64,000 nt of DNA, taken from an uncultured Bacteroidia bacterium (GTDB taxonomy: Bacteria > Bacteroidota > Bacteroidia > Bacteroidales > CAJPTX01). A model generated the notes under the pieces. That model did no database searches, was not told the DNA's origin, and saw only the letters and a list, made by a program, of their open reading frames with translations. The DNA lies in assembly GCA_965240855.1 (NCBI GenBank), contig CBDEMG010000038.1, positions 18,226 through 82,225 of the forward strand. Reading direction: 5' to 3'. Of the stretch, positions 7,828 through 29,566 are shown in pieces (positions within the stretch are counted from its first letter, which is position 1; every line of letters starts with the position of its first letter). The position numbers were made by a program, and so were the translations under genes.

Positions 7828-10800
7828 CTAATAATCCTCTGTTTCCTCTTCCAAGGCTTCCTTTTCAAACTTCGCCTCCACAGTTATTGCATAGCCAGGC
7901 ATTGAGAATTGAAACTCGGAGTCACTTAGTTTGAGATAATTAATCTTTCCCTTTTTCTTCGAACCACTCTTATAGATTAGAAGACTGGAAAGACGGTAAT
8001 CTTCCTCTGGTTCTATCTCTAACATTACCCAAGTATCCTTTTCCTGTCCCTCATTCCCATTGACAATCTCAATTGTGCCATGTTCTGTGGGTTGGATTGT
8101 AATAGGATATGTTGTGGGTTCTGCTAGCAAAGGATTTCCATCGTCTTCTATTTTATCATCATCTCCCTCATCTATCCTATCCTCGTTTATCTTATCATCA
8201 TTATCATTCGCATCCTCATTCTCCTCATCTCCATTTTTTTCATCTTTCTCAAAAATCACTTGTACTTCTACCGCGCAGGCCGGCATCTTAAAACGATACT
8301 CGGTATCGCTTACCTTATTCGTGCTAACTGTTACACTCTCCGCACCACTTTTGAAGACCTTAAGACTCGCGAAATGATAATCGGCGTCTGGCGTGAGAGT
8401 TAAGGTTACCTGCGTATCGGCTTCTAACTCGCCTTCTTTATCTGCTTCTAACGTACCATTGGAAGGAGACTGTAACGAAAGTAAATAGGTTGTTGGAACT
8501 TGGGGGTGCGATTGCTGTGTTTTGTTCTTCTCAAACACCACTTTCACCGTCACATCATGCGCGGGCATCGTGAAATGATAATCGGTATCGCTGTCCTTGG
8601 TAGTAGCTATCGTAACCTTCGAATTGGTGAGCTTATACACTTTGAACGTTGCAAGGTGATAGTTCTCGTTTGGTATTAATGATAACCGTACCTCGGTATT
8701 AGACTTCACTTCGTCTTTCTTGGATATCTCTACTTTGCCATTAGGGGTGTCTTCCAATTGAAGCCAATATGTCCCTTGAGGCACATCCTTTTCAAACTTC
8801 ACCTCCACCGTTACGTCGTGGGCAGGCATAGTGAAACGATAGTCCGTGTCGTTATCCTTAGTGGTAACGACTGCGACTCCAGGATTATTGAGCTTATAAA
8901 CTTTGAAAAGCGCGAGACGGCAGTTTTCGTTGGGTATTAACGATAACTTAACCTCCGTATTGACTGGCACATTACCTTCATTAGATATCTCAACTCTACC
9001 ATTAGAGGTAGATTTCAATTCTAACCGATAAGACTTTGAGGCTTGCGGATTATCCTCTCCAGGTGTTTGTGATGACTCTTTCCCAAAAGTTGCCTGTACG
9101 GTTACCGAATAGTCTGGCATTACGAAACTATACTCATTGTCTCCGACCTTAGTCGTGCTAACAATTACTCCCTCCTCTCCTCTCTTATAGACTTTGAGGT
9201 TTTCGAGGTGATAAGAATCGTCAGGGGTTAATCTTAAAAATATCTCTGTTTCGCCAGCATCTCCTACAGATTTAAAAATATCTACTTTCCCGTGTGGCGA
9301 AGGTTTTAGGGAGATTGATGGCGGTTGCGAGGTTGCATTCTTTTTCTCAAATACCACCTTCACCATTACGTCGTGGGCAGGCATAGTAAAACGATACATT
9401 GTTTCACTATCCTCGGTGGTTGCAATACTTAAACTTTCATCACCGCTCTTGTATACTTTGAGAATTGAGAGGTTGTAATCTTTCTCGGGCGCAACAGTTA
9501 TAGTTACCTGCGTAGCAGACTTCACATCTTTTGTCTCTGAGCACTTTACCGAACCGTGGGCTGTAGGGGCAAGTGCAACAGAATGTTTGGTAAATTGGTA
9601 GGTTGGGATGGGTAATTGTGTCTCACCTCCTTCCACAACAAAAGGATATTTACTAAAACTCTTAAGTGTGTGATCTTTCAGTTCCGCTAAAACAAAGGCA
9701 GATTTAGTCCCCTTGGGTAGGTTAACAACTTTTCGGAGCGTGATCTCAATACTCTTACCCGGTTCAATGATATAGGTGCGGAGATGTTCAAATTCTCCAG
9801 GAAAACCTTTAGGATCTAGGAAATAAATCAACCAGTTATCAATATATGCACCAGCGTTGCCCTTGGCGCTGAGCCTAAAGCGTGCAGTATAGTCAGATCC
9901 CGCCTTTACATGTTCTGTTTTTTCGATGAGCTGAATATCAGGCAAATCTAACTCATAATGTGCTGCAGGAGTAATAGATATACTCGCTATAGGAAGTTTA
10001 CAGATCTTACCCTCACTATGCTCGTTTGCAAAGAAGTGGAGATATTTTTTCGTCCTACTCTTAGGACCCATAATCTGGGTGCGGAACATCGTCACTTCTC
10101 CAGGAGCTATATCTACTAGCTCATTGATTGCGCACTCGTCTAGCGATGAGGGGGGCATGGGCGATTCCGAGTCGCTATAAACAGCTTGTATATAGGATTT
10201 GTATTGTTGCGATCCCTTACTCCCCACACTCCATTCTACTGCATTGTAATTGTTCTCGTGAAGAGTGGTGGTGCTCTTCCATGTAACTTCCAACTGCGGA
10301 GTTTGGGTAACTTCCCTCACTTGTAAGGTTCGATGGGAAGCGGCTATCTTGATTTGTAGCCTTTTCCTATCCCTAGAGGTTACGGGATAGTACGTTTTGT
10401 TATCCTCCTCGTAAATATACGGACGGAGAGTATAGAGACCATTTGACACACCCGAGCAGTTGAACCCTTCACATAAGAGTTTATTGATACCCGGTTTTAG
10501 TAGTGTAGCCCCTTTCGATAGAAACCGGCTTACTTCCTCCCCTTTTTCATTGATAAAAGCAAATGCAAGACGTATAAAGCGAGACTCCGTGGAAGAGGTA
10601 AATACGCCACCAAGCCCGACCTCTCTGAAAGGAGTAGTAACTAACTCTGGTTCCAGATCCCACGAATGTACCAATAAGTCCAAGTAGGTGTAGTTATGGA
10701 CGTCTGGAGTGCCGCTATATTGCACTGCAGGGCAAATCCCAATAATTGCATCCTGATAGAAACTATAATTCCCATTATTGGATTCTAATTTATGCAATCT

Positions 10801-11793
10801 AAAGTATCCATCACATTGTCCGTTCCATCCCCAGTTTACATGGAAGTAACCATTTCCATCATATCCATCTATGACAAAGGTGTGTCCAGCTCCTTGTAAT
10901 GGCACACCACTGTAAATCACAGGACGCCGCGCTTGTAACTCCGATATAAGGAGCTGTTCCCACACTAATGAAGAATAGTCGCTAGCATGTACTAGCTGAA
11001 GCGATGGTGCATAAGCAAAATAAGAGCGAAGTGCATTAAAAGCATCGAACGAAGAACTCGCACCCCCCGAAGCGCTATATCGCATTCTTAATGCCTTTCC
11101 GAGTTCGCGCATTAAATAAGCCACTGCTTCCTTTTCTTCTTGCGTGCCGTCGCTAGCAGGATTGTTGGGCATCTTTTTCCAATCAAAGGATTTCGTACAG
11201 AATTCGTTCTCGCCCGCTATCGTCCCTTTCCCTTGCGGAGGCCATGCATAGTAACGCATCAATTGGGCACAGGCTGTTGCCACACAACCTGTTGGGTATT
11301 TATTAGGTGTATAAAGGTTGTATGGGTACTCCTGCCCCCAGGCAAGGTTACGCAGGAGTGGAGTAACCACCTCTGCAGCATTACGGAAGTTCTGTGAGGA
11401 AGGAACGCTCCTTGTATTACGAACCTCCTTAACCCATGCCGAATATCCGTCAAGGTATTGGGCAATCTCCCTAGGCATTGCCTGGGTGGAGAAGTTATCC
11501 TGATCCGAATAAGCAAGAATTGGGGGGAGGGCGTCGTCTCCTGCCACGACCACAAATCCAGCCCCAGTCTTGTTGCCAAAGACATAGTAATCTTTCCCAT
11601 CGTTACTCCCTTTAGTGGGTAATCCAGAGCTCGTATAGAGCAGTTCAACGGGCTGAGCTCCTCTCACAAGCTCCAATTTGAAATGTTGTTGTGCGTAGCT
11701 TGCCGCTTTTTCTTGTGAAATGGGGGCAGCCCACACCCTTAGGGTACTAAAAAGTAGTAACCCAAATAGAATTAGGATAGTGTTTTTGTTCAT
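7828..11793 (-). CDS. Peptidase C10 (streptopain/PrtT-like cysteine protease) with seven C-terminal tandem beta-repeat modules
   Basis: Signal peptide MNKNTILILFGLLLFSTLRVWA (ATG at 11793). Catalytic Cys context TGCVATACAQLMRYYAWP and His context GAGHTFVIDGYDGNGYFHVNWGWNG. The C-terminal ~590 aa consists of 7 repeats, each ending ..Y(R/H/S)F(T/V/K)MP..DV.V.V.FEK. Confidence 0.85.
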   Translation of the reverse strand: MNKNTILILFGLLLFSTLRVWAAPISQEKAASYAQQHFKLELVRGAQPVELLYTSSGLPTKGSNDGKDYYVFGNKTGAGFVVVAGDDALPPILAYSDQDNFSTQAMPREIAQYLDGYSAWVKEVRNTRSVPSSQNFRNAAEVVTPLLRNLAWGQEYPYNLYTPNKYPTGCVATACAQLMRYYAWPPQGKGTIAGENEFCTKSFDWKKMPNNPASDGTQEEKEAVAYLMRELGKALRMRYSASGGASSSFDAFNALRSYFAYAPSLQLVHASDYSSLVWEQLLISELQARRPVIYSGVPLQGAGHTFVIDGYDGNGYFHVNWGWNGQCDGYFRLHKLESNNGNYSFYQDAIIGICPAVQYSGTPDVHNYTYLDLLVHSWDLEPELVTTPFREVGLGGVFTSSTESRFIRLAFAFINEKGEEVSRFLSKGATLLKPGINKLLCEGFNCSGVSNGLYTLRPYIYEEDNKTYYPVTSRDRKRLQIKIAASHRTLQVREVTQTPQLEVTWKSTTTLHENNYNAVEWSVGSKGSQQYKSYIQAVYSDSESPMPPSSLDECAINELVDIAPGEVTMFRTQIMGPKSRTKKYLHFFANEHSEGKICKLPIASISITPAAHYELDLPDIQLIEKTEHVKAGSDYTARFRLSAKGNAGAYIDNWLIYFLDPKGFPGEFEHLRTYIIEPGKSIEITLRKVVNLPKGTKSAFVLAELKDHTLKSFSKYPFVVEGGETQLPIPTYQFTKHSVALAPTAHGSVKCSETKDVKSATQVTITVAPEKDYNLSILKVYKSGDESLSIATTEDSETMYRFTMPAHDVMVKVVFEKKNATSQPPSISLKPSPHGKVDIFKSVGDAGETEIFLRLTPDDSYHLENLKVYKRGEEGVIVSTTKVGDNEYSFVMPDYSVTVQATFGKESSQTPGEDNPQASKSYRLELKSTSNGRVEISNEGNVPVNTEVKLSLIPNENCRLALFKVYKLNNPGVAVVTTKDNDTDYRFTMPAHDVTVEVKFEKDVPQGTYWLQLEDTPNGKVEISKKDEVKSNTEVRLSLIPNENYHLATFKVYKLTNSKVTIATTKDSDTDYHFTMPAHDVTVKVVFEKNKTQQSHPQVPTTYLLSLQSPSNGTLEADKEGELEADTQVTLTLTPDADYHFASLKVFKSGAESVTVSTNKVSDTEYRFKMPACAVEVQVIFEKDEKNGDEENEDANDNDDKINEDRIDEGDDDKIEDDGNPLLAEPTTYPITIQPTEHGTIEIVNGNEGQEKDTWVMLEIEPEEDYRLSSLLIYKSGSKKKGKINYLKLSDSEFQFSMPGYAITVEAKFEKEALEEETEDY
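7831..9600 (-). repeat. Seven tandem ~85-95-aa coding repeats (InlB-B-repeat/Listeria-Bacteroides-repeat-like) with an embedded D/E-rich linker (about 8130-8260)
   Basis: The motif TMPAHDVTV.V.FEK recurs at roughly 270-nt spacing. The acidic stretch is GDEENEDANDNDDKINEDRIDEGDDDKIEDDG. Confidence 0.75.
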
Positions 11794-11835
11794 GACAGTT
11801 CTGTCTTCTAATTTGCTCAAATGCCTAAAAATATT

Positions 11836-11843
11836 CAAAAATA
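11836..11843 (-). promoter_or_regulatory. Bacteroidota -7 promoter box (TATTTTTG on the minus strand)
   Basis: CAAAAATA on the plus strand, an exact TAnnTTTG match, ~43 nt upstream of the C10 protease ATG. Confidence 0.35.
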
Positions 11844-11997
11844 ATAAAAGGAATCCGTCCCTGTTGCATTAAGGTTACATCCTTCTTGCTCCCTAAGTAA
11901 TCAATATTTGTAGAGGCGAAACGTGATTCGCACATTGAAGGTGCGTCAAAATGTAAATTACGAGAGATATAAAGCAAGTATACCATTATCTTTTCCA

Positions 11998-12060
11998 GAC
12001 AGGGCATGCCCTGTCCTACATAACACCCTCAGCCCAAAGTTTCTACATTGGGCTGGAGTC
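11998..12060. repeat. REP-like element, unit 1 (18-nt palindrome GACAGGGCATGCCCTGTC, CTACATAA tail, then a hairpin)
   Basis: Perfect palindrome at 11998-12015. Tail CTACATAACACCC. Hairpin CAGCCCAA-agtttctac-attGGGCTG. Confidence 0.7.
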
Positions 12061-12080
12061 TCATTTCAGAACTCCTGATA

Positions 12081-12235
12081 GGGCATGCCATGTCCCTTCA
12101 TAACACCCCACAGCACGGGGTTTCTACCGCCGTGCTAAAAAAGACTCGCCCCACAAGGGGGCTTAAGTAAGACCCGCTTGTCGCAAATTCCGCCCCTCTG
12201 GCGCAAGGACCGTCTGCTAAGACCGTTAGGAGCAG
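12081..12235. repeat. REP-like element, unit 2; left copy of the direct repeat flanking the Type ISP cassette
   Basis: Degenerate palindrome GGGCATGCCATGTCCC, hairpin AGCACGG-ggtttctaccg-CCGTGCT, hairpin GCCCC-acaa-GGGGC, then ..GTCTGCTAAGACC... By eye it aligns to 18741-18872 at roughly 80% identity. Confidence 0.7.
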
Positions 12236-12251
12236 TTCTCCCCTTTTGCTT

Positions 12252-12259
12252 TAAATTTG
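12252..12259 (+). promoter_or_regulatory. Bacteroidota -7 promoter box (TAAATTTG)
   Basis: Exact TAnnTTTG match, 42 nt upstream of the Type ISP ATG at 12301. Confidence 0.4.
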
Positions 12260-12300
12260 ACATATGCATGTGCAATTCGTAAGTAGCTCAGGTAAAGAAA

Positions 12301-15300
12301 ATGACTACCATCCACGAAATCTTAACGCGAGTCCGAAAAGAAGCACTCACCGAAACTGAAAAAGGGACACGATTCGAAAGGCTTATGTGTGCATGGCTCA
12401 AAACCACGCCTATGTACGCGAACCTCTTCGAGGCTGTGTGGCTCTGGCGCGAGTTCCCTGCACGCAGCGAATTCGGTGGTAAAGATACGGGGATAGATAT
12501 CGTAGCAAAGACCAACCTAGGCGAATACTGGGCAATCCAGTGTAAGTGCTATGCCGAAGATACGCACATCAATAAGCCCGAGGTCGATACCTTCCTCTCC
12601 ACCTCTAGCAAAGGGTTTACCGACCCGACAAGTGGCGCGAGCTGCTCGTTTGCACACCGTCTCTGGATTGCAACAACCTACCACTGGGGGCGCGAAGCCG
12701 AGCTCGTGATTCAAAACCAGAACCCACCCGTTACGCGCATTCAACTCGCCGATCTGGATGCCTCGCCCGTCGACTGGGGCAAACTCTGGGAAGGGCTTGA
12801 GGGCTCTGCGGCGCGTATTGCGAGAAAAGAGCTCCGCAAACACCAAATCGAAGCACTGCAAGCGGCACATGCCCACTATGCTACTGCTGATCGGGGCAAA
12901 CTCGTTATGGCATGCGGCACGGGAAAGACCTTTACCTCGCTTAAACTCGTCGAACAAGAGCTGAGTGGCCACGGGCTTGTACTCTTTCTCGTACCCAGTA
13001 TCGCACTGCTCGGTCAGTCGCTTAACGATTGGATGGGCGATGCCGAAAAGCCCCTGAAAGCCATCTGCGTCTGCTCGGATGCGCACGCCTCGCGCAAAAT
13101 GAAGCGCAATGAGGACGACGCCCCCTCCGATACCCCTGTCGACCTAGCCCTCCCTGCCTCGACGCACCCCGAAACGATAATCCGTCAGCTCGAGGCCTAC
13201 CAAAATTACGAGGGGCTTGTGGTCGTGTTTTCTACCTACCAAAGTATCGACATTGTCGCAGCGGCGCAAGTGCAACTCCTCGAAAAGAGCGAGGGTACGT
13301 ACGGGACTTTTGACTTCGTAGTATGCGACGAGGCGCATCGCACCACGGGCGTGAAAATCTCGCAAAGCGACGAGAGCAACTTCACCAAAATCCACAACAA
13401 CGAGATTATCCGCGCCTACAAACGACTCTATATGACCGCCACGCCGCGCATCTTTGGCGAGACCTCCAAAATAAAAGCCAGCAAGAACAACTATATCCTC
13501 TGTTCGATGGACGATACCTCGATTTACGGCGAGGAGTTCTATCGCGTGAACTTCGCCTATGCCGTACGCGAGGGCATCCTGACAGACTATAAAGTGCTGG
13601 TGCTGACCGTCTCGGAGGATCAGATCCCAGACGAGCTCCTTCAACAAATAAAAGAGGACGACCTGCACGAACTCAACTACGACGACACGGGGAAGCTCAT
13701 CGGGCTTATCAACGGACTCTCGAAAAAGCTCTATGGCGACCACGGCATCACTTGGCTCTCCGACCCACGACTGATGCGACGTGCACTCGCCTTCACCCAC
13801 AAAATCGGTAAGACGGACGAGCCTGGCACCTCAAAAAACATAGAAAAGGTCTTCCCACAAGTTTCGCAAACCTACAACGCGAGCCTCTCTGCGGAAGAGC
13901 AACAGCAAGTGGTGCACATCGCTACGCGCCACGTGGACGGAAGTATGGGCACTAGCGAACGGCATGCAGCCCTTGCATGGCTTGCAGAAGAAGCAGAAGA
14001 CCCACAGGAGTGCCGCATCATCTCGAACGTACGATGCCTTTCGGAGGGAGTGGATATCCCCGCCCTCGATGCTGTAATTTTCCTCTCGGCGCGCAGCTCG
14101 CAAGTAGATATCGTACAAAGCCTAGGGCGCGTGATGCGCTCGTTTCGGCGCGGGCAGCTTGGCGAAAAGAAGTATGGCTACATCATTATCCCCGTCGTTG
14201 TGCCCGAGGGTGTAAGCCCAGAGAAGGCTCTGGAGGACAACGCTTTTTCCACGGTCTGGAGTACGCTGAACGCCCTCCGTGCGCACGACGACCACTTTAA
14301 CGCCATTGTAAACTCGATTGCACTGAACCAGAACAAGTCCTCTAAAATTACCCTCGCAACCCTCGGGATGGGGCAGACGGGCGTAGGACAAACTGACCCC
14401 GTGCCAGCACGTCACGAGGCGCAGCAGATATCGCAACAGACGATTATCAGCCGACTTCACCTCAAATTTGGCGACGCACAGCAAGCCATCTACGCAAAGC
14501 TCGTTGAGAAGTGTGGCGACCGTTTCTATTGGGAGGACTGGGCTGCCTCCGTGGGCGAGATTGCAAAAAAGTACATTGCGCGCATCGAACGACTGGTTCT
14601 AAAGAAAGAGAGCGAGCTAGCCGCTGAGTTTCAACGCTTTGTAAGCACCCTGCAGCAGAACCTGAACCCGAGTATAGCACCTGAGCAGTGCATCGAGATG
14701 CTGGCGCAGCACCTCATTACGCGCCCCGTGTTCGAAGCCCTATTTACTGAATATCAGTTCGTTAGCAACAACTCGATCTCCTCCTCAATGCAGCGAATGA
14801 TTGAACTGCTGGAGCGCGAGGCCGTGAATAAGGATCTTGCCCCATTACACAATTTCTACGAATCGGTACGCGCCAATGTGGGAAATATCGATAACCTCGA
14901 GGGCAAACAGACCGTAATCAAAAATCTCTACGAGAAGTTTTTTAAGCGCGCCTTCCCCCTTACGGTCGAAAAACTGGGGACGGTCTATACTCCCATCGAG
15001 TGCGTCGATTTTATTCTCCATTCGGTCGACGATGTGTTGCGCAAAGAATTCGGTACAGCCCTGACAAACAAAGGGGTACACGTGCTCGATCCCTTTGCTG
15101 GCACGGGTACATTCATTACGCGCCTCCTGCAATCGGGGCTAATACGTCGCGAAGATATGGTGCGCAAATATCGCGAGGAGCTCCACGCCAACGAGCTTAT
15201 TCTTTTGGCATATTACATAGCCGATGTGAACATCGAGAGCGTCTTTCAGCAGCAATACAACCCCGAGGAATATATGCCCTACGACGGGATTTGCCTAACC

Positions 15301-17211
15301 GACACCTTCCAGCAAGGTGAAAATAACGAAGGCGACCTCTTCACAGAATTCTTCCGAGAGAACTCCGAAATTGTGGAGGCGCAGCGCAAGACCCCTATAC
15401 GCGTAATTGTGGGCAACCCGCCCTATTCGGTGGGGCAGAAATCGGCTAACGACAACGCGCAAAACCAAAGGTATCCAAAGCTTGAAAGGCGAATAGAGGA
15501 GACCTATGTAGCAGCATCCTCTGCAGTCAATTCTAAAAGCCTTTACGACTCCTATATTAAGGCTTTCCGCTGGGCTACCGATCGTTTGCCTGAGAACGAG
15601 GGAGGGGTAATTGCCTTTATTTCGAACGGAGCGTGGATAGACGGCAACTCGCAGGACGGCTTTCGCGCTTCGCTCCGAAAAGAATTTGACAAAATTTATG
15701 TTTACAATTTGAGGGGAAATCAACGTACAAGCGGCGAACTCTCGCGCAAAGAGGGGGGTAAAATCTTCGGAGGCGGCAGCCGTACGCCTATAGCCATAAC
15801 CATTTTAGTGCGCTATCCTGCTGAGCGGCGACTACCACAAGGGCAGATCTTCTATTACGACATTGGCGACTACCTTAGCCGCGAACAGAAACTCGCCACC
15901 ATTCGTAAGACAAAAAGCTATGTCAACCTAAAGTGGACAGAGATTACCCCCAATGCGAAGCACGACTGGATCAACCAGCGAGATGGGCTTTTCGATACCC
16001 TACTCCCCCTTGCGCCTGAAAAGAAGTATAACAAAGAGACCAAGAGTGTGTTTGTGACGAATGCAATAGGGATTGCAACAAATAGGGATGCGTGGGTCTA
16101 CGGCTTTTCTAAAGAGCAAGTAAGCGCTAATATGCAGGCGATGATTGCTTTCTATAAGGCGCAAATTGGGCAAGAGAGACCATCTATTGATGAAACAAAA
16201 ATAAGCTGGACTAGGGCGTTACGAAAAGATTTAGAAAAAGAGAAAATCCACTCGTTCGATATTTCAACATTTGTAGAAAGTTCTTATCGGCCATTCACTA
16301 AGTATGCTCTGTATAATCATCGACCTTTTATCGAATGTCCAGGTATTTTTGAACAGCTATTTCCCACGCCAAAGCATGAAAACTTGCTCATTGGAGTATG
16401 TGGAGTAGGAGCAGGAAAAGGATTCTCTACGCTTATTTTAGATAAAGTTCCTTCTCTTGATATTTTAGACAAAACTCAATGTTTCCCCCTCTACTACTAC
16501 ACCGAAAGTAAGGACACCGTAACGCACGACCTATTCGGGAAGGAGGTCGCCTCCCACTGGGAGCGGCACGATGGGGTGTCCGATTGGTTCTGGACGGAGG
16601 TGCGCTCGCGCTACGGCTATGCGCACAACCTCACGAAGGAGGATATCTTTTACTATGTCTATGGTTTGTTGCACAGCCCAGACTATCGCGCTCGTTTTGC
16701 CGACGACCTGCGTAAAAGTCTCGCACGCATCCCTATTGTAGACTCCGTAGACGATTTCATCGCCTTTAGCAAAGCGGGTCGTGCCCTTGCTGCCCTCCAC
16801 CTAAGTTATGAGGAACACGCCAACGAAGCCCTTCAAATGGGCGTTACGCTCCTCGAGCGCGACAAGGCCGATCAAGACCCTTACGACTACTACGCCGTCC
16901 AGAAACTCCGCTTCCCGAGCAAGACCGAACGTGACACCATAATCTACAATGCGCACATTGAAATCGGGAACATCCCCCTTGCGGCGTACGACTACGTAGT
17001 GAACGGCAAATCGCCCATCGAATGGGTGATGGAACGCTATGCCATCACGACAGATAGGAAGAGTGGAATCCCGAACAACCCGAACCTCTGGGCCAAAGAA
17101 CACTCCGCTCCGCGTTATATCCTCGATCTTCTCCTCTCGCTCATCTATGTGAGCGTAGAAACCAATAAAATTGTGAAAGTACTACCCAAAGTGGAATTTG
17201 AAAAAGCATAA
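12301..17211 (+). CDS. Type ISP restriction-modification enzyme (Mrr-like nuclease, SF2 helicase-like ATPase, N6-adenine methyltransferase, C-terminal specificity domain; LlaGI/LlaBIII architecture)
   Basis: 1636 aa. The nuclease core is GIDIVAK...WAIQCK. The helicase has Walker A ACGTGKT (12916-12930), DEAH (13327-13338), TATPR and QSLGRVMR. The methylase has the AdoMet motif LDPFAGTGTF and NPPY (15415-15426). The C-terminal part carries RDAWVY, YRPF and CFPLYYY motifs, which I recall from Type ISP C-terminal domains. Confidence 0.9.
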   Translation: MTTIHEILTRVRKEALTETEKGTRFERLMCAWLKTTPMYANLFEAVWLWREFPARSEFGGKDTGIDIVAKTNLGEYWAIQCKCYAEDTHINKPEVDTFLSTSSKGFTDPTSGASCSFAHRLWIATTYHWGREAELVIQNQNPPVTRIQLADLDASPVDWGKLWEGLEGSAARIARKELRKHQIEALQAAHAHYATADRGKLVMACGTGKTFTSLKLVEQELSGHGLVLFLVPSIALLGQSLNDWMGDAEKPLKAICVCSDAHASRKMKRNEDDAPSDTPVDLALPASTHPETIIRQLEAYQNYEGLVVVFSTYQSIDIVAAAQVQLLEKSEGTYGTFDFVVCDEAHRTTGVKISQSDESNFTKIHNNEIIRAYKRLYMTATPRIFGETSKIKASKNNYILCSMDDTSIYGEEFYRVNFAYAVREGILTDYKVLVLTVSEDQIPDELLQQIKEDDLHELNYDDTGKLIGLINGLSKKLYGDHGITWLSDPRLMRRALAFTHKIGKTDEPGTSKNIEKVFPQVSQTYNASLSAEEQQQVVHIATRHVDGSMGTSERHAALAWLAEEAEDPQECRIISNVRCLSEGVDIPALDAVIFLSARSSQVDIVQSLGRVMRSFRRGQLGEKKYGYIIIPVVVPEGVSPEKALEDNAFSTVWSTLNALRAHDDHFNAIVNSIALNQNKSSKITLATLGMGQTGVGQTDPVPARHEAQQISQQTIISRLHLKFGDAQQAIYAKLVEKCGDRFYWEDWAASVGEIAKKYIARIERLVLKKESELAAEFQRFVSTLQQNLNPSIAPEQCIEMLAQHLITRPVFEALFTEYQFVSNNSISSSMQRMIELLEREAVNKDLAPLHNFYESVRANVGNIDNLEGKQTVIKNLYEKFFKRAFPLTVEKLGTVYTPIECVDFILHSVDDVLRKEFGTALTNKGVHVLDPFAGTGTFITRLLQSGLIRREDMVRKYREELHANELILLAYYIADVNIESVFQQQYNPEEYMPYDGICLTDTFQQGENNEGDLFTEFFRENSEIVEAQRKTPIRVIVGNPPYSVGQKSANDNAQNQRYPKLERRIEETYVAASSAVNSKSLYDSYIKAFRWATDRLPENEGGVIAFISNGAWIDGNSQDGFRASLRKEFDKIYVYNLRGNQRTSGELSRKEGGKIFGGGSRTPIAITILVRYPAERRLPQGQIFYYDIGDYLSREQKLATIRKTKSYVNLKWTEITPNAKHDWINQRDGLFDTLLPLAPEKKYNKETKSVFVTNAIGIATNRDAWVYGFSKEQVSANMQAMIAFYKAQIGQERPSIDETKISWTRALRKDLEKEKIHSFDISTFVESSYRPFTKYALYNHRPFIECPGIFEQLFPTPKHENLLIGVCGVGAGKGFSTLILDKVPSLDILDKTQCFPLYYYTESKDTVTHDLFGKEVASHWERHDGVSDWFWTEVRSRYGYAHNLTKEDIFYYVYGLLHSPDYRARFADDLRKSLARIPIVDSVDDFIAFSKAGRALAALHLSYEEHANEALQMGVTLLERDKADQDPYDYYAVQKLRFPSKTERDTIIYNAHIEIGNIPLAAYDYVVNGKSPIEWVMERYAITTDRKSGIPNNPNLWAKEHSAPRYILDLLLSLIYVSVETNKIVKVLPKVEFEKA

Positions 17212-17216
17212 TAATA

Positions 17217-18581
17217 ATGTCAACTATCGAAGAAATTCACAAGTCGCTTTTAACATTAAAAGAAAGCCTTCCTTCATTCCGACAATATCTTAATGATACC
17301 TACAAGAATCGGATGGATGAGGGAATATGGGGGGAAGAGTTAGAATATAGCCCCAAGGGATTATTAAAAGAGCTCGTACATATCATTGTAGACACAACTA
17401 GTCTGGTCCAAAATCAAGATTACTTCATCCGTCTTTCTACTTATAACGAGAGGGAAAATGTTAGAGCTAATCTGAGCAATATAATCCATTTTTCATCTTC
17501 TCTGCAAATTGATCATTTAATATTCAACTTAAATAATCTTAAGATATTATTGCGACCATATAATCTTCGCTCAGATAAAAAGCGTATGATAGCCTTTCAA
17601 AATGTGCTTGATGAGCAAATAGGACGCTCTGAAGAACTTAAGCACCTAGAAGCAGCGATAAAAGAGCAAGAAAGTAAAATCAACCACATTGTTTCTGAAG
17701 TTTTGGCGCAATATGACGATATTTCTCAAAAACAAAAAAAGATAGTTGAGCTACTAGAAAATAGTCAGGCAATCAACAAGGCTCTTAACGCGATAAAAGA
17801 AGACTCGCATAAAATAGAAAAGGAAATTCGTTCTGCCCAGTCAGTGATTTTAAATTCAGAAGAAAAGTGTAACGAAAAAGTAGAATCTATTGCAGCAATC
17901 ATAAAGGAGGTAAATCAACATGAACAGCAGATAAAACAACAAAATGAACGCTTTGAAATATTCAATCAAACATTAGCGGAGAATGAAACTCAACAAAAAA
18001 AATATCTGGAAGAAGCTCTCAATCTTATTGAGAAGGCAAAAACAGCTTTAAGCTATACGACTTCTGTAGGGTTAGGCGCCTCTTTCGATACTCAATACAA
18101 AAATCTTACAGGCAAGTTTGGCTATAAATTGTGGATTTGGATTGTTGCTGCGGTAGTTACTATAATTGGGGTAGTGTGCATTGGTATTTGGTTAATAAAT
18201 GGTAATCACCAAGTTCAAAGCGATTCGTATATGTGGACTCGAATTGTCGGCAAGTTAAGTATGATACCATTACTTGTAACTGCCACGCTCTTTTGCGCTA
18301 AACAGTATACTAAGCAAAAAAACTTGCTCGAAGATTACGCCTATAAGCGCTCTCTTGCGCAATCTATGATAGCTTTTTCAGAAGAATTACGAGAAAAAGA
18401 TGCAGAGAAGTACCGAGAATATCTTTCCATGGCACTAACTCAAATACACCAAGATCCTCTTCGCCACAGAGTAAATCCCAATGCAAAAGTAGAGGCTAAG
18501 TCAAATTATTTAATTAACGAAAGTATTTTGAATTATATAAAACAAATTCTTGCATTGGTTCAAAAGAAAGACGAAGAATAA
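17217..18581 (+). CDS. Uncharacterised coiled-coil protein with two C-terminal transmembrane helices
   Basis: 454-aa ORF starting 5 nt after the Type ISP stop. The first ~290 aa are E/K/Q-rich heptad-like sequence. TM1 is LWIWIVAAVVTIIGVVCIGIWLI (~18127-18198) and TM2 is IVGKLSMIPLLVTATLFCA (~18243-18300), followed by a ~90-aa charged tail. The gene is strongly AT-rich compared with its neighbour. Confidence 0.75.
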   Translation: MSTIEEIHKSLLTLKESLPSFRQYLNDTYKNRMDEGIWGEELEYSPKGLLKELVHIIVDTTSLVQNQDYFIRLSTYNERENVRANLSNIIHFSSSLQIDHLIFNLNNLKILLRPYNLRSDKKRMIAFQNVLDEQIGRSEELKHLEAAIKEQESKINHIVSEVLAQYDDISQKQKKIVELLENSQAINKALNAIKEDSHKIEKEIRSAQSVILNSEEKCNEKVESIAAIIKEVNQHEQQIKQQNERFEIFNQTLAENETQQKKYLEEALNLIEKAKTALSYTTSVGLGASFDTQYKNLTGKFGYKLWIWIVAAVVTIIGVVCIGIWLINGNHQVQSDSYMWTRIVGKLSMIPLLVTATLFCAKQYTKQKNLLEDYAYKRSLAQSMIAFSEELREKDAEKYREYLSMALTQIHQDPLRHRVNPNAKVEAKSNYLINESILNYIKQILALVQKKDEE

Positions 18582-18740
18582 TTTTTACTACTGTTTGCTA
18601 ACGTTTTATTTAGAGGTAAAAATAGAATTGTTACATAACAATATCAATAATAATCCTATCAACTATATATGCAGTAGACCAAGAAGCGAATTATCATCGT
18701 ATATGTTAAGTATTGATTATAAAGCCATAAAATTTAATAA

Positions 18741-18872
18741 GGCATACCCTGTCCCTACAAACCTGCAGCACGGGGTTCCCACCGCCGTGCTAGAAATACT
18801 CGCCCCGCAAGGGGGCTTAAATAGAACCGCTTGCCGCAAGGGTGTCGTCTGCTAAGACCCCGCCTAGTGCAG
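18741..18872. repeat. REP-like element; right copy of the direct repeat flanking the Type ISP cassette
   Basis: GGCATACCCTGTCCCTACAA, hairpin AGCACGG-ggttcccaccg-CCGTGCT, hairpin GCCCC-gcaa-GGGGC, then GTCTGCTAAGACC. Same order and orientation as 12081-12235. Confidence 0.7.
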
Positions 18873-18917: not shown

Positions 18918-18950
18918 TAAAAAAAGAGCGAGACTCTCGCCTCGCTCTTT
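18918..18950 (-). terminator. Rho-independent terminator of the small lipoprotein gene
   Basis: On the minus strand, AGAGCGAG-gcgagagt-CTCGCTCT is followed by TTTTTTT, 27 nt after the stop. Confidence 0.7.
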
Positions 18951-18976: not shown

Positions 18977-19420
18977 TTACTTTGTCATTGTTGCTGTAAC
19001 TTTAACTTCTTTGCCGCCCTTGTCCTTACCATCAAGAGTCAAGGTGTATTCAGCTTTCTTGTCAGCGTTTTCTTTAACTGCGAAATCAGCTTTAGTGTCT
19101 TTCTTCATACCATCCATTACATCAGCATCCAGCATGTACTTTGTGATATCAGCGCCCTTTTTAAATTCAGTTTCTTTCAAACCTAACTGTTCGCAAGTAA
19201 GCTTAACGTTGTCGCCATCAGCTACAACTTTTACAGTTACATCTGCTTGGTCTAACTTACCCTTGTAGTCACCAGCTAAATCAGAAACCTTTTCAATCTT
19301 CAGCTCCTTCTTTGGCTCTTCTTTCTTCTTGTTGTTATCTTTATTTTCGTCCTTCTTGCAAGAAGTGAAAGCAACAGTTGTTGCCAAAGCTGCGAGAGCT
19401 AAAACATAACGCAATTTCAT
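18977..19420 (-). CDS. Small lysine-rich lipoprotein, unknown function
   Basis: MKLRYVLALAALATTVAFTSC lipobox (ATG at 19420), then a K/E/D-rich linker. A terminator follows the gene. Confidence 0.7.
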   Translation of the reverse strand: MKLRYVLALAALATTVAFTSCKKDENKDNNKKKEEPKKELKIEKVSDLAGDYKGKLDQADVTVKVVADGDNVKLTCEQLGLKETEFKKGADITKYMLDADVMDGMKKDTKADFAVKENADKKAEYTLTLDGKDKGGKEVKVTATMTK

Positions 19421-28907: not shown

Positions 28908-28927
28908 GGACAGGGCATGCCCTGTCC
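28908..28927. repeat. REP palindrome GGACAGGGCATGCCCTGTCC with a CTACATAA tail
   Basis: Perfect 20-nt palindrome with the same tail as the copy at 11998. It is followed by TAATCAACAATTTATAGAGGCG (28944-28965), which also occurs at 11898-11918. Confidence 0.8.
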
Positions 28928-29059: not shown

Positions 29060-29566
29060 TTATTCGTAAAATTCATCTCGCTCCCAGTTTATAGGGTTAT
29101 CTAATATGTATTGTGCAACATTTATATACTCTTGCCGTGAGCGTAATATCCGATCATAAAATCGAGGTTGCCATACAAAAGTCAAATCTAGACGATGTGC
29201 TTCTCTACTTACAGCCGCTTTGTATGAACCTACGATTGCAGATAGCGTTTTACGACCTATATTCTGATATCTATTGGTTCCAACTGTAGGGACAGGGCAT
29301 GCCCTGTCCGGTAGTAACGTTAATAGTCCATGAATGTGATTGGGCATTATAACAAACTCCGCTAATTGTACATTGGAGAAATGCTCTGGTATTTGTTGCC
29401 ATAATTTCATAGCAAGTTCACCAATTTGCGAGAGAAGCATTTTACCATTCTCAATTTTACCGAAATAATGAAATCGTTCATGTGTGCAGAATGTAACATA
29501 ATAGATACCTTCTTTACTATAATCCCAGTTCTGTAGTCGATGTGACGTTCTATCTCTGTACGACAT
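29060..29566 (-). CDS. IS200-like Y1 (HUH) transposase, REP-associated tyrosine transposase (RAYT)-like
   Basis: 168 aa. HUH motif MPNHIHGLL, Tyr-helix IVGSYKAAVSRE and WQPRFYDRI. The ATG lies 4 nt after the susD stop. Confidence 0.8.
   Translation of the reverse strand: MSYRDRTSHRLQNWDYSKEGIYYVTFCTHERFHYFGKIENGKMLLSQIGELAMKLWQQIPEHFSNVQLAEFVIMPNHIHGLLTLLPDRACPVPTVGTNRYQNIGRKTLSAIVGSYKAAVSREAHRLDLTFVWQPRFYDRILRSRQEYINVAQYILDNPINWERDEFYE
29290..29309. repeat. REP palindrome GGACAGGGCATGCCCTGTCC inside the RAYT ORF
   Basis: Perfect 20-nt palindrome, translated in frame as PDRACPVP between the HUH and Tyr motifs. A CTACA tail is present on the minus strand. Confidence 0.85.

What the first reader, a model, noticed from the sequence alone, without database searches (positions are those of the whole stretch)
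12081..18872. Repeat-bracketed two-gene cassette: a Type ISP restriction-modification enzyme coupled to an unknown coiled-coil 2-TM protein
A complete single-polypeptide Type ISP enzyme occupies 12301-17211. It carries an Mrr-like nuclease, GTGKT and DEAH helicase motifs, an FxGxG plus NPPY methylase, and a specificity domain. A 454-aa ORF with no family I can name follows after only 5 nt (17217-18581). As far as I know, Type ISP enzymes (LlaGI, LlaBIII) are described as stand-alone proteins, so a tightly coupled membrane partner is unexpected. The pair is bracketed by ~130-bp direct repeats in the same orientation (12081-12235 and 18741-18872). It sits between unrelated minus-strand genes (C10 protease, small lipoprotein) and has its own TAAATTTG promoter box. 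This layout fits an inserted defence module. The nuclease-translocase could provide sequence discrimination, with the 2-TM protein acting as an abortive-infection-type membrane effector or anchor.
Basis: partly seen in the sequence, partly recalled or inferred. Interest (0 to 1): 0.8.

Follow-up and report, generated by a model that had tools for sequence, protein, structure and literature searches.

The report
Restriction enzyme with recurring membrane-protein companion
A normal single-chain restriction-modification enzyme is followed by a gene from a large, unnamed family of membrane proteins that sits beside many kinds of restriction systems and in a known phage defence hotspot, making it a good untested candidate for a new antiviral gene.

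Summary
The two genes are real. Window 12301-17211 encodes a complete Type ISP enzyme: a full-length match to LlaBIII/LlaGI with all Pfam ISP domains. Five bases later, 17217-18581 encodes a 454-aa protein with a long coiled coil and two transmembrane helices. It matches no Pfam, NCBIfam, PADLOC or PHROG family.

This partner belongs to a large unnamed family (3,380 representative clusters) with one fixed architecture and an invariant FCAxQYxKQKxxxEDYAYK motif after the second membrane helix.

In Prevotellaceae the partner follows Type ISP genes at five or more different chromosomal sites. It also follows or sits inside Type III, Type I and MmeI/IIG operons. 23 of 51 dereplicated lineages have a restriction gene within 5 kb. 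Proteobacterial homologues sit in the P2 prophage gpA-gpQ defence hotspot.

The partner is therefore not ISP-specific. Two same-species strains carry the same ISP at the same locus without it. One has Fic and NYN genes there instead; the other has nothing.

The "bracketing repeats" are species-specific REP-like hairpin arrays of variable copy number, not cassette ends.

Best reading: a mobile, membrane-acting accessory defence module co-transcribed with restriction enzymes. The mechanism is inferred, not shown.

The parts
7828..11838 (-). Left flank: C10-family cysteine protease with Spi inhibitor pro-domain and B-repeats. Unrelated to the operon.
   Evidence: Pfam Peptidase_C10 4.5e-59, Inhibitor_I69, Flg_new_2 x6. 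The same gene flanks the ISP in same-species contigs L051/L053.
11994..12235 (+). Left REP-like hairpin array: module 1 twice (11994-12016, 12073-12095), then modules 2 and 3 (12111-12136, 12144-12166) and a tail.
   Evidence: Hairpins fold at -40 kcal/mol, z -2.3. One or two tandem copies occur in L051/L053.
12252..12259 (+). TAAATTTG, a Bacteroidota -7-type promoter-like box 42 nt upstream of the ISP start codon.
   Evidence: Sequence. The motif is not above chance window-wide, 54 vs 46 expected. No such box lies directly upstream of the partner gene.
12301..17211 (+). Type ISP restriction-modification enzyme, 1636 aa.
   Evidence: Pfam domains. PADLOC REase_MTase_IIG 2033 bits. PDB LlaBIII 4xqk 1146 bits over aa 17-1634 and LlaGI 5ffj 1135 bits.
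12400..12795 (+). ISP Mrr-like nuclease domain (aa 34-165).
   Evidence: PF13156 Mrr_cat_2 3.5e-45.
12826..14139 (+). ISP SF2 helicase-like ATPase/translocase (aa 176-613) with GTGKT and DEAH.
   Evidence: PF04851 ResIII 1.8e-21 and PF00271 Helicase_C. Motifs seen in the translation.
14527..14901 (+). ISP coupler domain (aa 743-867).
   Evidence: PF22240 5.3e-46.
14917..15681 (+). ISP N6-adenine methyltransferase domain (aa 873-1127) with FAGTG and NPPY.
   Evidence: PF02384 and PF07669. Motifs.
16048..17130 (+). ISP C-terminal target-recognition domain (aa 1250-1610).
   Evidence: PF18135 Type_ISP_C 1.6e-103.
17217..18581 (+). Partner gene, 454 aa: N-terminal helical domain, long coiled coil, 2-TM hairpin and conserved cytoplasmic C-terminal helices. 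Member of a large unnamed family.
   Evidence: The 5-nt gap, with no terminator or promoter box between the genes, implies co-transcription.
18000..18578 (+). Conserved C-terminal domain of the partner (aa 262-454): pre-TM helix with the ALxYxTxxGL..F motif, TM1, TM2, then a long cytoplasmic helix.
   Evidence: Alignments A4/A5/A7. AF2 pLDDT 75, pTM 0.56. hhalign to the proteobacterial clade gives 98.6%, E 9e-16.
18117..18209 (+). Transmembrane helix 1 (aa 301-331).
   Evidence: Kyte-Doolittle peak 2.92. Helix in both AF2 models.
18243..18299 (+). Transmembrane helix 2 (aa 343-361).
   Evidence: Kyte-Doolittle 1.86. K/R-rich flanks on the N and C sides and none in the loop suggest N-in/C-in topology (inference).
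18291..18347 (+). Family signature FCAKQYTKQKNLLEDYAYK (aa 359-377). E372, D373, Y374, Y376 and K377 are invariant across phyla.
   Evidence: Invariant columns in A2, A4, A5 and A7. Conserved in the proteobacterial clade A6.
18737..18872 (+). Right REP-like hairpin array: degenerate module 1, then modules 2 and 3 and a tail.
18923..18950 (.). Bidirectional terminator-like hairpin between the operon and the convergent lipoprotein gene.
   Evidence: 10-12 bp stem, with a T-run on the minus strand.
18977..19420 (-). Right flank: small putative lipoprotein (MKLRYVLALAALATTVAFTSC...).
   Evidence: Sequence only; no family match. Not present next to the ISP in L051/L053.

Best explanation
The locus is a two-gene operon.

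Gene 1 is a canonical Type ISP restriction-modification enzyme. By homology to LlaGI/LlaBIII it should methylate one strand of an asymmetric site, translocate on ATP, and cut when two enzymes collide.

Gene 2 encodes a member of a large, unnamed, horizontally mobile family of membrane-anchored proteins. Predicted topology is N-in/C-in: a roughly 280-aa cytoplasmic helical/coiled-coil part, a 2-TM hairpin, and a highly conserved cytoplasmic helix carrying EDYAYK.

The family behaves as an autonomous accessory defence-type module. It repeatedly lodges immediately downstream of, or inside, restriction operons (Types I, ISP, III, IIG/L) in Bacteroidota. In Proteobacteria it sits in the P2 prophage defence hotspot and on plasmids.

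The most likely role is a second-line, membrane-acting effector causing growth arrest or abortive infection. It would be expressed from the restriction operon and act when restriction fails.

Shown: the gene anatomy, the family, the conserved linkage, its mobility, and that the ISP can exist without the partner.

Inferred: the defence role, membrane action, the trigger, and any physical contact with the enzyme.
For: Type ISP identity.

Co-transcription: 5-nt gap, with no promoter box or terminator between the genes.

Family size and fixed architecture:
- 3,380, 1,320 and 356 representatives at E<=1e-3, 1e-10 and 1e-30. The top 150 all carry the domain at the C-end of a 410-460-aa protein.
- Invariant motifs.

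Linkage:
- ISP plus partner at five or more different chromosomal sites: window, L005-10, L043-46, L047-50, L056-64.
- Type III Res plus partner on an ICE.
- Partner between hsdS and hsdR in L021, L076, L085, L105, L109/111/117.
- MmeI/IIG plus partner in L030/L130, L071, L132.
- 23 of 51 dereplicated lineages have a restriction gene within 5 kb, and 14 have one directly adjacent on the same strand. These are lower bounds.

Modularity:
- An ISP 3'-end remnant was carried with the partner into a Type III operon in L054.
- The window partner's nearest relative is Type III-linked, at 54% identity.

Defence-hotspot evidence:
- True homologues (hhalign 98.6%) lie between gpA and portal gpQ of P2-like prophages in 12 of 29 viral loci and in L163.
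- That site is the hotspot defined in PMC9122126. WP_001583354 is listed there as 'hypothetical'.

Interchangeable slot: same-species strains have 338-aa+Fic+NYN, or nothing, downstream of a 90-95% identical ISP.

Concept: coupling of restriction systems to toxin-like accessory genes is established (PMC12707154, citing Makarova 2012 and PrrC).
Against: - No experiment and no recognisable enzymatic or pore domain.
- No match to any PADLOC model for any family member.
- Structure searches give nothing significant.
- About half of the assessable lineages show no detected restriction gene nearby. Some sit next to housekeeping genes such as PriA, enoyl-CoA hydratase and GyrA.
- Guilt by association cannot separate defence from other mobile-element cargo functions.
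- The full-length AF2 model is weak (pLDDT 64.5).
Confidence: 0.5

Rival explanations
1. PrrC-style guard. The partner binds the restriction enzyme through its coiled-coil or N-terminal domain and is held inactive. When a phage anti-restriction protein inhibits or stalls the enzyme, the partner is released and permeabilises or depolarises the membrane.
For: - In Type I operons the partner takes the same position as prrC, between hsdS and hsdR. PrrC logic is described in PMC12707154.
- Gaps are very tight: 5-14 nt next to the R or RMS gene.
- ISP and partner co-diverge as a pair across sites (ISP ~65-70% identity, partner 43-48%).
Against: - One protein family would have to read four structurally different enzyme types.
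- Partners swap between enzyme types with little change: the Type III-linked one is the window partner's closest relative.
- Many members stand alone, in P2 hotspots, on plasmids or beside housekeeping genes.
- A near-identical ISP exists without any partner.
Confidence: 0.2
2. Non-defence mobile-element cargo. The partner is a superinfection-exclusion or DNA-entry blocker at the inner membrane, or an addiction/maintenance factor, or another membrane function that merely travels with mobile DNA.
For: - The partner is found on ICEs, plasmids, prophages and next to an integrase.
- It is membrane-located.
- Some contexts lack any defence gene.
Against: - Its position in the P2 hotspot and within restriction operons is typical of anti-phage cargo.
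- The large cytoplasmic coiled coil and the conserved cytoplasmic motif are unlike small Sie-type proteins (inference).
- No antitoxin-like small neighbour is conserved.
Confidence: 0.15
3. Dedicated subunit or membrane anchor of the Type ISP enzyme. It would localise the enzyme at the inner membrane where foreign DNA enters, and would be needed for full restriction.
For: - ISP plus partner pairs recur with a fixed 13-nt spacing at many loci.
Against: - Same-species strains keep a 90-95% identical, intact ISP without the partner.
- LlaGI and LlaBIII work as stand-alone proteins (established knowledge; PDB entries).
- The partner occurs with unrelated enzyme types and alone.
Confidence: 0.07
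4. The whole 12081-18872 segment is a mobile cassette that inserted here by recombination at its terminal direct repeats.
For: - Direct repeats flank the two genes.
- GC content differs from the background.
- ISP plus partner occurs at different loci in other genera.
Against: - The repeats are species-specific REP-like arrays, present in 1-2 copies upstream and 0-2 downstream in other strains. In L053 they bracket the ISP alone.
- No cassette in another genus carries them.
- No empty site was found: the ISP is at this locus in all three same-species contigs.
- Homology to those contigs ends at 17204, not at a repeat.
Confidence: 0.05

Closest known systems
LlaGI / LlaBIII (Type ISP restriction-modification enzymes; PDB 5ffj, 4xqk)
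   Same: Gene 1 has the same single-chain domain order: Mrr nuclease, SF2 ATPase, coupler, N6-adenine methylase, TRD. It aligns over its full length at 1135-1146 bits.
   Different: It is a Bacteroidales enzyme of unknown specificity. Here, and in many Prevotellaceae, a conserved membrane-protein gene follows it. I found no description of that for the lactococcal prototypes in the searchable library.
PrrC / EcoprrI (anticodon nuclease embedded in a Type Ic operon) and RloC
   Same: An accessory gene embedded between hsdS and hsdR, or directly after the R gene. It is patchily distributed and proposed as a suicide back-up when restriction is defeated (PMC12707154; contexts).
   Different: The partner has no ABC-ATPase or anticodon-nuclease domain. 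It is a 2-TM coiled-coil protein, occurs with four restriction types, and also occurs alone.
SLATT-type 2-TM effector domains (SMODS/SLOG-associated)
   Same: A helix-TM-TM-long-helix module at the C-end of a conflict-system protein. Seven of the top 50 weak BFVD structure matches are SLATT proteins.
   Different: No Pfam SLATT match. The Foldseek E-values, 0.45-2.8, are not significant. No nucleotide-signalling (SMODS/SLOG/CBASS) neighbours were seen.
Cargo of the P2 gpA-gpQ hotspot (old, tin and the systems of Rousset et al. 2022, PMC9122126)
   Same: Proteobacterial homologues occupy exactly this hotspot. One is listed in that paper's Table S5A.
   Different: It is listed there only as 'hypothetical'. 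I found no sign that it was among the systems cloned and tested. The homologues are only 23-28% identical to the window protein in the C-terminal domain (the exception is L134, 32%).
Fic/DOC and other toxin-like genes embedded in restriction operons (Makarova et al. 2012 concept)
   Same: They occupy the same slots. Fic genes sit beside the partner in L021 and L111, and replace it downstream of the ISP in strain L051.
   Different: Different protein family, with no Fic motif.
REP/BIME-type intergenic repeat arrays
   Same: The flanking repeats are short GC-rich imperfect palindromes in modular arrays. They are intergenic, species-specific and vary in copy number between strains.
   Different: Association with a RAYT transposase is unproven. 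The nearby 168-aa ORF with MPNHIH has no Pfam match.

Membership tests
Type ISP restriction-modification enzymes | Single polypeptide with Mrr-like nuclease, SF2 helicase-like ATPase, coupler, gamma-class N6-adenine methyltransferase and C-terminal TRD, in that order | tested here: met
   Pfam domains in order. Full-length alignment to LlaBIII 4xqk and LlaGI 5ffj.
Type ISP restriction-modification enzymes | Intact catalytic motifs (Walker A GTGKT, DEAH, FxGxG, NPPY, D...QxK nuclease core) | tested here: met
   Read in the translation: ACGTGKT, CDEAH, DPFAGTGTF, GNPPYS, GIDIV...AIQCK.
Type ISP restriction-modification enzymes | ATP-driven unidirectional translocation and cleavage on head-on collision; hemimethylation of an asymmetric site | not testable with these tools
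   Biochemical property, inferred from homology only.
PrrC-type restriction guard | Gene embedded in or directly attached to a restriction operon | tested here: met
   5-nt gap here. Between hsdS and hsdR in L021, L076, L085, L105, L109/111/117.
PrrC-type restriction guard | ABC-type ATPase plus anticodon-nuclease domains | tested here: not met
   No such domains in Pfam or NCBIfam. So the partner is not a PrrC family member; at most it is an analogue.
PrrC-type restriction guard | Physical silencing by the restriction enzyme and activation by an anti-restriction factor | not testable with these tools
   Needs interaction and challenge experiments.
SLATT 2-TM effector domains | Match to a SLATT profile (Pfam SLATT_1-6) | tested here: not met
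   No SLATT hit at E<=0.01 for the window protein, nor at E<=0.1 for ten diverse members.
SLATT 2-TM effector domains | Fold similarity | tested here: inconclusive
   BFVD Foldseek: several SLATT proteins among the weak hits, E 0.45-2.8, TM 0.27-0.42. Nothing in the PDB.
SLATT 2-TM effector domains | Neighbourhood with SMODS/SLOG/nucleotide-signalling genes | tested here: not met
   Not among the neighbour families.
Catalogued anti-phage systems (PADLOC-DB v2) | Match to any system protein model | tested here: not met
   Only coiled-coil noise (JetC, LmuB, DruC; E>1e-5) for ten family members.
Unnamed coiled-coil + 2-TM 'EDYAYK' family (defined here) | 410-470 aa; C-terminal domain with the A-L-x-Y-x-T-x-x-G-[LI]-x-x-x-F pre-TM motif, two TM helices, then (F/W)xxxxQxxxxxxxxEDY(A/E)(Y/F)K and PLR | tested here: met
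   The window protein carries every invariant column. Profile search. Cross-phylum hhalign 98.6%.
Repeat-bounded mobile cassette | Presence/absence polymorphism of the whole segment, with one repeat copy at the empty site; the same terminal repeats travel with the cassette | tested here: not met
   The ISP is present at the same locus in all three same-species contigs. The repeats vary independently and are absent from cassettes in other genera.
REP/BIME-like repeats | Short imperfect palindromes, intergenic, multi-copy, copy number variable between strains | tested here: met
REP/BIME-like repeats | Cognate RAYT (HUH Y1 transposase) in the genome | tested here: inconclusive
   A 168-aa ORF at 29060-29566 has MPNHIH and is flanked or interrupted by the module-1 palindrome. 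It has no Pfam match.

The most novel reading that the evidence does not exclude
The family is a general restriction guard. It would be a membrane-embedded effector whose cytoplasmic coiled coil monitors ATP-dependent or single-chain restriction enzymes of several types. An alternative signal is the DNA ends or stalled complexes those enzymes produce. It would collapse membrane integrity when a phage disables or outruns restriction. That would make it a widespread, previously unrecognised second layer built into restriction operons across Bacteroidota, with free-standing versions in P2 prophage hotspots.
Probability: 0.2. Interest if true: 0.8.

Novelty: new variant of a known kind. Interest (0 to 1): 0.6.

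Why it matters
Restriction enzymes are usually treated as self-sufficient. Only a few accessory back-up genes, PrrC and RloC, are understood.

This is a very large family: thousands of 50%-identity clusters in at least two phyla. It has no entry in Pfam, NCBIfam, PADLOC or annotated PHROGs. It is wired into four kinds of restriction operon and also occupies a validated prophage defence hotspot.

If it is an anti-phage or anti-plasmid effector, it adds a common new gene to the defence catalogue of gut and oral Bacteroidales. It would also give a tractable case of layered immunity, with restriction first and a membrane effector second. Finally, it would explain a recurrent 'hypothetical protein' in P2 prophages of E. 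coli and Klebsiella. The E. coli/Klebsiella homologue makes the idea directly testable with standard coliphage panels.

Tried and rejected
- **Family searches on the partner.** Pfam, NCBIfam, PADLOC and PHROGs gave only coiled-coil noise.
- **Structure.** The full-length AF2 model was weak (pLDDT 64.5) and Foldseek against the PDB found nothing at E<=0.001. The C-domain model was better (pLDDT 75), but PDB and BFVD searches were again not significant. A PDB sequence profile search was negative.
- **First exhaustive-search attempt.** It was redone with recorded sequences.
- **Profile search in the word-indexed database.** It returned mostly gene fragments and gave no alternative architectures, apart from deletion chimeras P0181 and P0222.
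- **Exact-sequence look-ups.** P0001 and the flanking lipoprotein were not found, so no empty site could be sought from the right flank.
- **Repeats as cassette ends.** Rejected.
- **Repeats as a known RNA.** No Rfam hit.
- **Sigma-70 promoter scan.** Uninformative for Bacteroidota. The TAnnTTTG count was at chance level.
- **ISP remnants upstream of lone partners (L038, L012, L055).** None found.
- **Partner remnants downstream of the ISP in L051/L053.** None found.
- **Literature.** Searches for Type ISP plus a membrane partner, for the accession, for the PHROG id, and for RM-embedded TM proteins found no description of this family.

Full report
**1. What is in the sequence**

The + strand carries two abutting ORFs: 12301-17211 (1636 aa, ATG start) and 17217-18581 (454 aa, ATG start). 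They are 5 nt apart.

The first ORF is a complete Type ISP enzyme.
- Pfam finds Mrr_cat_2 (aa 34-165), ResIII/Helicase_C (176-613), ISP_coupler (743-867), N6_Mtase/Eco57I (873-1127) and Type_ISP_C (1250-1610).
- PADLOC scores it 2033 bits as a fused REase-MTase.
- It aligns over its full length to the solved structures of LlaBIII (4xqk, 1146 bits, aa 17-1634) and LlaGI (5ffj).
- The translation shows GTGKT, DEAH, FAGTG and NPPY.

The second ORF has no curated family. Pfam, NCBIfam, PADLOC and PHROGs return only weak coiled-coil matches to SMC, Rad50 and JetC.
- It has two hydrophobic segments, aa 301-331 and 343-361.
- K/R-rich stretches lie before the first and after the second segment, and none lie in the short loop. 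This suggests an N-in/C-in hairpin (topology is inference).
- AlphaFold predicts an all-helical protein with one very long helix, aa 121-283, at pLDDT 64.5.
- The C-terminal 193 aa modelled alone reach pLDDT 75 and pTM 0.56. In that model TM2 runs straight into a 58-residue helix.

Between the two genes there is no TAnnTTTG box and no terminator-like hairpin. A bidirectional terminator-like hairpin lies at 18923-18950. Co-transcription from upstream of the ISP gene is therefore the simplest reading.

**2. The repeats**

The flanking similarity is real. Each module occurs twice against zero expected.

It is not a clean pair of ~130-bp repeats. About 105-120 nt align at 85-90% with indels. The sequence is a string of short GC-rich hairpins. 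The first module, GGACAGGGCATGCCCTGTCC-like, also occurs at 11994, 28908 and 29290.

Contigs from the same species (about 95% nucleotide identity over the left flank and the ISP gene) carry the same elements in other numbers.
- L051 has two tandem copies upstream.
- L053 has two upstream and two downstream, and there they bracket the ISP gene alone.
- None of the ISP-partner cassettes from other genera has them.
- They match no Rfam family.

These are REP/BIME-like intergenic elements of this genome, not the ends of a cassette.

**3. Is the segment an insertion?**

Two same-species contigs show the same C10 protease, the same repeat arrays and a 90-95% identical ISP gene at the same place. Homology to the window stops at 17204, which is 7 nt before the ISP stop codon.

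Downstream of the ISP:
- L051/L052 carry a 338-aa unknown gene, a Fic/DOC gene and a NYN gene.
- L053 goes straight into a repeat array.
- Neither contains any trace of the partner.
- Their right flank is rpoC/rpoB, which is absent from the 64-kb window.

At strain level the ISP is resident. What varies is the slot behind it. The window partner is the only member of its 90% cluster and is at most 54% identical to any other sequence found.

**4. The partner's family**

A first search gave 271 relatives of about 458 aa, 44-54% identical, all unnamed.

A profile of the C-terminal domain was then searched against 1.84 billion representative proteins.
- It found 3,380 proteins at E<=1e-3, 1,320 at <=1e-10 and 356 at <=1e-30.
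- The top 150 all have the same layout, with the domain at the C-end of a 410-460-aa protein.

The signature has four parts:
- A-L-x-Y-x-T-x-x-G-[LI]-S-x-x-F before TM1;
- two TM helices;
- FCAxQYxKQKxxxEDYAYK, with E, D, Y, Y and K invariant;
- a DPLR motif.

A proteobacterial clade keeps these motifs as ...WLATKQIGQRFRLAEDYAYK...PLR. It is homologous by profile-profile comparison: 98.6% probability, E 9e-16, over 147 columns spanning both TM helices.

Ten diverse members also lack any Pfam family, and nine lack any PADLOC model. The proteobacterial members fall in phrog_34659 and phrog_30912, both of unknown function.

**5. Genomic company**

*Prevotellaceae clade.* ISP plus partner, usually 13 nt apart, occurs between quite different neighbours.
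- Topoisomerase/ABC and OmpA (L005-10).
- EF-G and S1 (L043-46).
- An ABC transporter and fucose pyrophosphorylase (L047-50).
- Several further metagenome contigs (L056-L064) and L011.

The pair has therefore moved as a unit. Its members have diverged together: ISP about 65-70% identical, partner 43-48%.

The same clade also has the partner in other settings.
- Right after a Type III Res gene, in an SNF2-DUF4391-Mod-Res operon on a conjugative element (L001-4).
- Alone (L038-42 and L012).
- In L054, an 84-aa ORF sits between Type III Res and the partner at the usual 13-nt distance. It equals the last ~65 residues of an ISP (69% identical to window ISP 1566-1633). This is a footprint of transfer together with the ISP 3' end.

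*More distant Bacteroidota members (27-36% identical).*
- Between hsdS and hsdR of Type I operons: L021, L076, L085, L105, L109/111/117.
- After hsdR: L075, L080, L081.
- After MmeI-type or other IIG enzymes: L030/L130, L071, L132, L125.
- Next to an integrase, Schlafen/AlbA, DUF4062 or Z1 proteins.
- Sometimes next to housekeeping genes such as PriA, enoyl-CoA hydratase and GyrA.

*Counts.* After dereplication at 90% identity, 51 lineages had enough flanking sequence to judge.
- 23 have a restriction gene within 5 kb.
- 14 have one directly adjacent on the same strand.
- These are lower bounds, because detection used only a few reference proteins.
- I did not compute a matched background. From general knowledge, a few restriction systems per genome would put a restriction gene within 5 kb of roughly 1-2% of genes.

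*Proteobacteria.*
- The homologue lies between replication gene A and portal gene Q of P2-like prophages. This holds in 12 of 29 viral-collection loci and in a Klebsiella plasmid-borne prophage.
- Rousset et al. identified that site as a hotspot of anti-phage systems; it holds old and tin in P2 itself (PMC9122126).
- One such protein, WP_001583354, appears in their Table S5A only as 'hypothetical'.
- Other homologues are lone 'hypothetical proteins' on Vibrio, Xanthomonas, Agrobacterium and Paraburkholderia plasmids and in a Providencia phage.

**6. What it most likely is and does**

*Shown.*
- A canonical ISP enzyme with a co-oriented, abutting gene for a conserved 2-TM coiled-coil protein.
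- The family is large, mobile and patchy.
- It is recurrently wired into restriction operons of four types and into a validated prophage defence hotspot.
- The ISP does not need the partner, since near-identical enzymes lack it.
- Partners move between enzyme types. The window partner's nearest relative is the Type III-linked one.

*Inferred.*
- The family is an accessory defence-type module.
- Its conserved membrane hairpin and juxtamembrane helix are the business end.
- It acts at the membrane, causing growth arrest or abortive infection, as a second line behind restriction.

This fits the established idea that restriction systems are coupled to toxin-like accessory genes, with PrrC as the worked example (PMC12707154). 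It also fits Fic/DOC genes sharing or replacing the same slots.

A strict PrrC-like guard mechanism, with direct sensing of the enzyme, is possible but less likely. The reasons are the promiscuity across enzyme types and the many stand-alone members. A dedicated ISP anchor or subunit is unlikely. A non-defence cargo role, such as superinfection exclusion or element maintenance, cannot be excluded.

**7. Comparison with known things**

Gene 1 is a member of the Type ISP family: every sequence-level defining feature was met.

Gene 2 is not a member of PrrC/RloC, because the domains are absent. It is not a member of SLATT, because there is no profile match and only non-significant fold hints. It matches no PADLOC system. 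It defines, or belongs to, an unnamed family.

I found no paper describing the family or a membrane partner for Type ISP enzymes in the searchable library. That library is incomplete, so prior description elsewhere cannot be excluded.

**8. Verdict**

It is wrong that the partner is ISP-specific and that the two genes form a repeat-bounded insert.

The finding is worth following up as a candidate new, widespread, restriction-associated membrane effector. The mechanism remains hypothetical. I rate interest at 0.6 and novelty as a new variant of a known kind: a restriction-linked accessory effector from an undescribed family.

Noticed in passing
window 29060-29566 (-), with 28908-28927 and 29290-29309: A 168-aa ORF contains 'VIMPNHIHGLL', which looks like the HUH motif of IS200/RAYT-type transposases. 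The module-1 REP palindrome GGACAGGGCATGCCCTGTCC lies in frame inside it (as 'DRACPV'), and another copy lies about 130 nt beyond its 3' end. There is no Pfam match, so the RAYT idea is unverified.
   Followed up: partly
window 12301-18581; L005, L006, L011, L043, L047 cassettes: In every cassette the ISP gene is 50-60% GC and the partner gene 35-40% GC. The host background here is about 45%. This sharp compositional step between two co-transcribed genes is stable across the clade and unexplained.
   Followed up: partly
L054 7944-8198: An 84-aa ORF equals the last ~65 residues of a Type ISP enzyme. It is wedged between a Type III Res gene and the partner on a conjugative element, at the usual 13-nt spacing. 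This is a recombination footprint.
   Followed up: yes
P0181 (304 aa, 13 member sequences): A chimeric ORF in which the ISP Mrr nuclease N-terminus is fused to the partner from TM1 to its C-terminus. It is apparently a deletion product spanning most of both genes.
   Followed up: partly
window 17204 onward, compared with L051 and L053: Synteny with same-species contigs ends 7 nt before the ISP stop codon. Their right flank is rpoC/rpoB, which is absent from the whole 64-kb window. This implies a rearrangement or a large difference at this point.
   Followed up: partly
window 7828-11838 (-); L051 4990-9231; L053 4677-9179: The C10 protease is 1336 aa here but 1413 and 1500 aa in two same-species contigs. 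Internal repeat (B-repeat) blocks cross-match, so this is repeat-number polymorphism.
   Followed up: no
L021 7949-8812 and 11703-13079; L111 5684-7051; L051 16434-16925: Fic/DOC genes are embedded with the partner in Type I operons. A Fic gene plus a NYN gene occupies the slot downstream of the ISP in a same-species strain.
   Followed up: partly
L001 875-13577: A conjugative-element operon reads SNF2 helicase, DUF4391, Type III Mod, Type III Res, partner, then a 714-aa protein with no Pfam match. The 714-aa gene also follows the partner in L054.
   Followed up: no
L031 7420-9909: An 829-aa ORF lies directly upstream of the partner, where the syntenic locus L030 has an MmeI-type enzyme. It gave no Pfam match.
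   Followed up: no
L121 7992-11447; Table S5A of PMC9122126: DUF4145 is fused to the N-terminus of the HsdR in a partner-containing Type I operon. A DUF4145 protein also accompanies the P2-hotspot homologue WP_001583354 in an E. coli genome.
   Followed up: no
L165 (Vibrio plasmid NZ_CP046164.1) 7001-8389: A proteobacterial homologue sits just after an integrated filamentous-phage-like module (replication initiator, Zot-like protein) and a few kb from a DarT gene.
   Followed up: no
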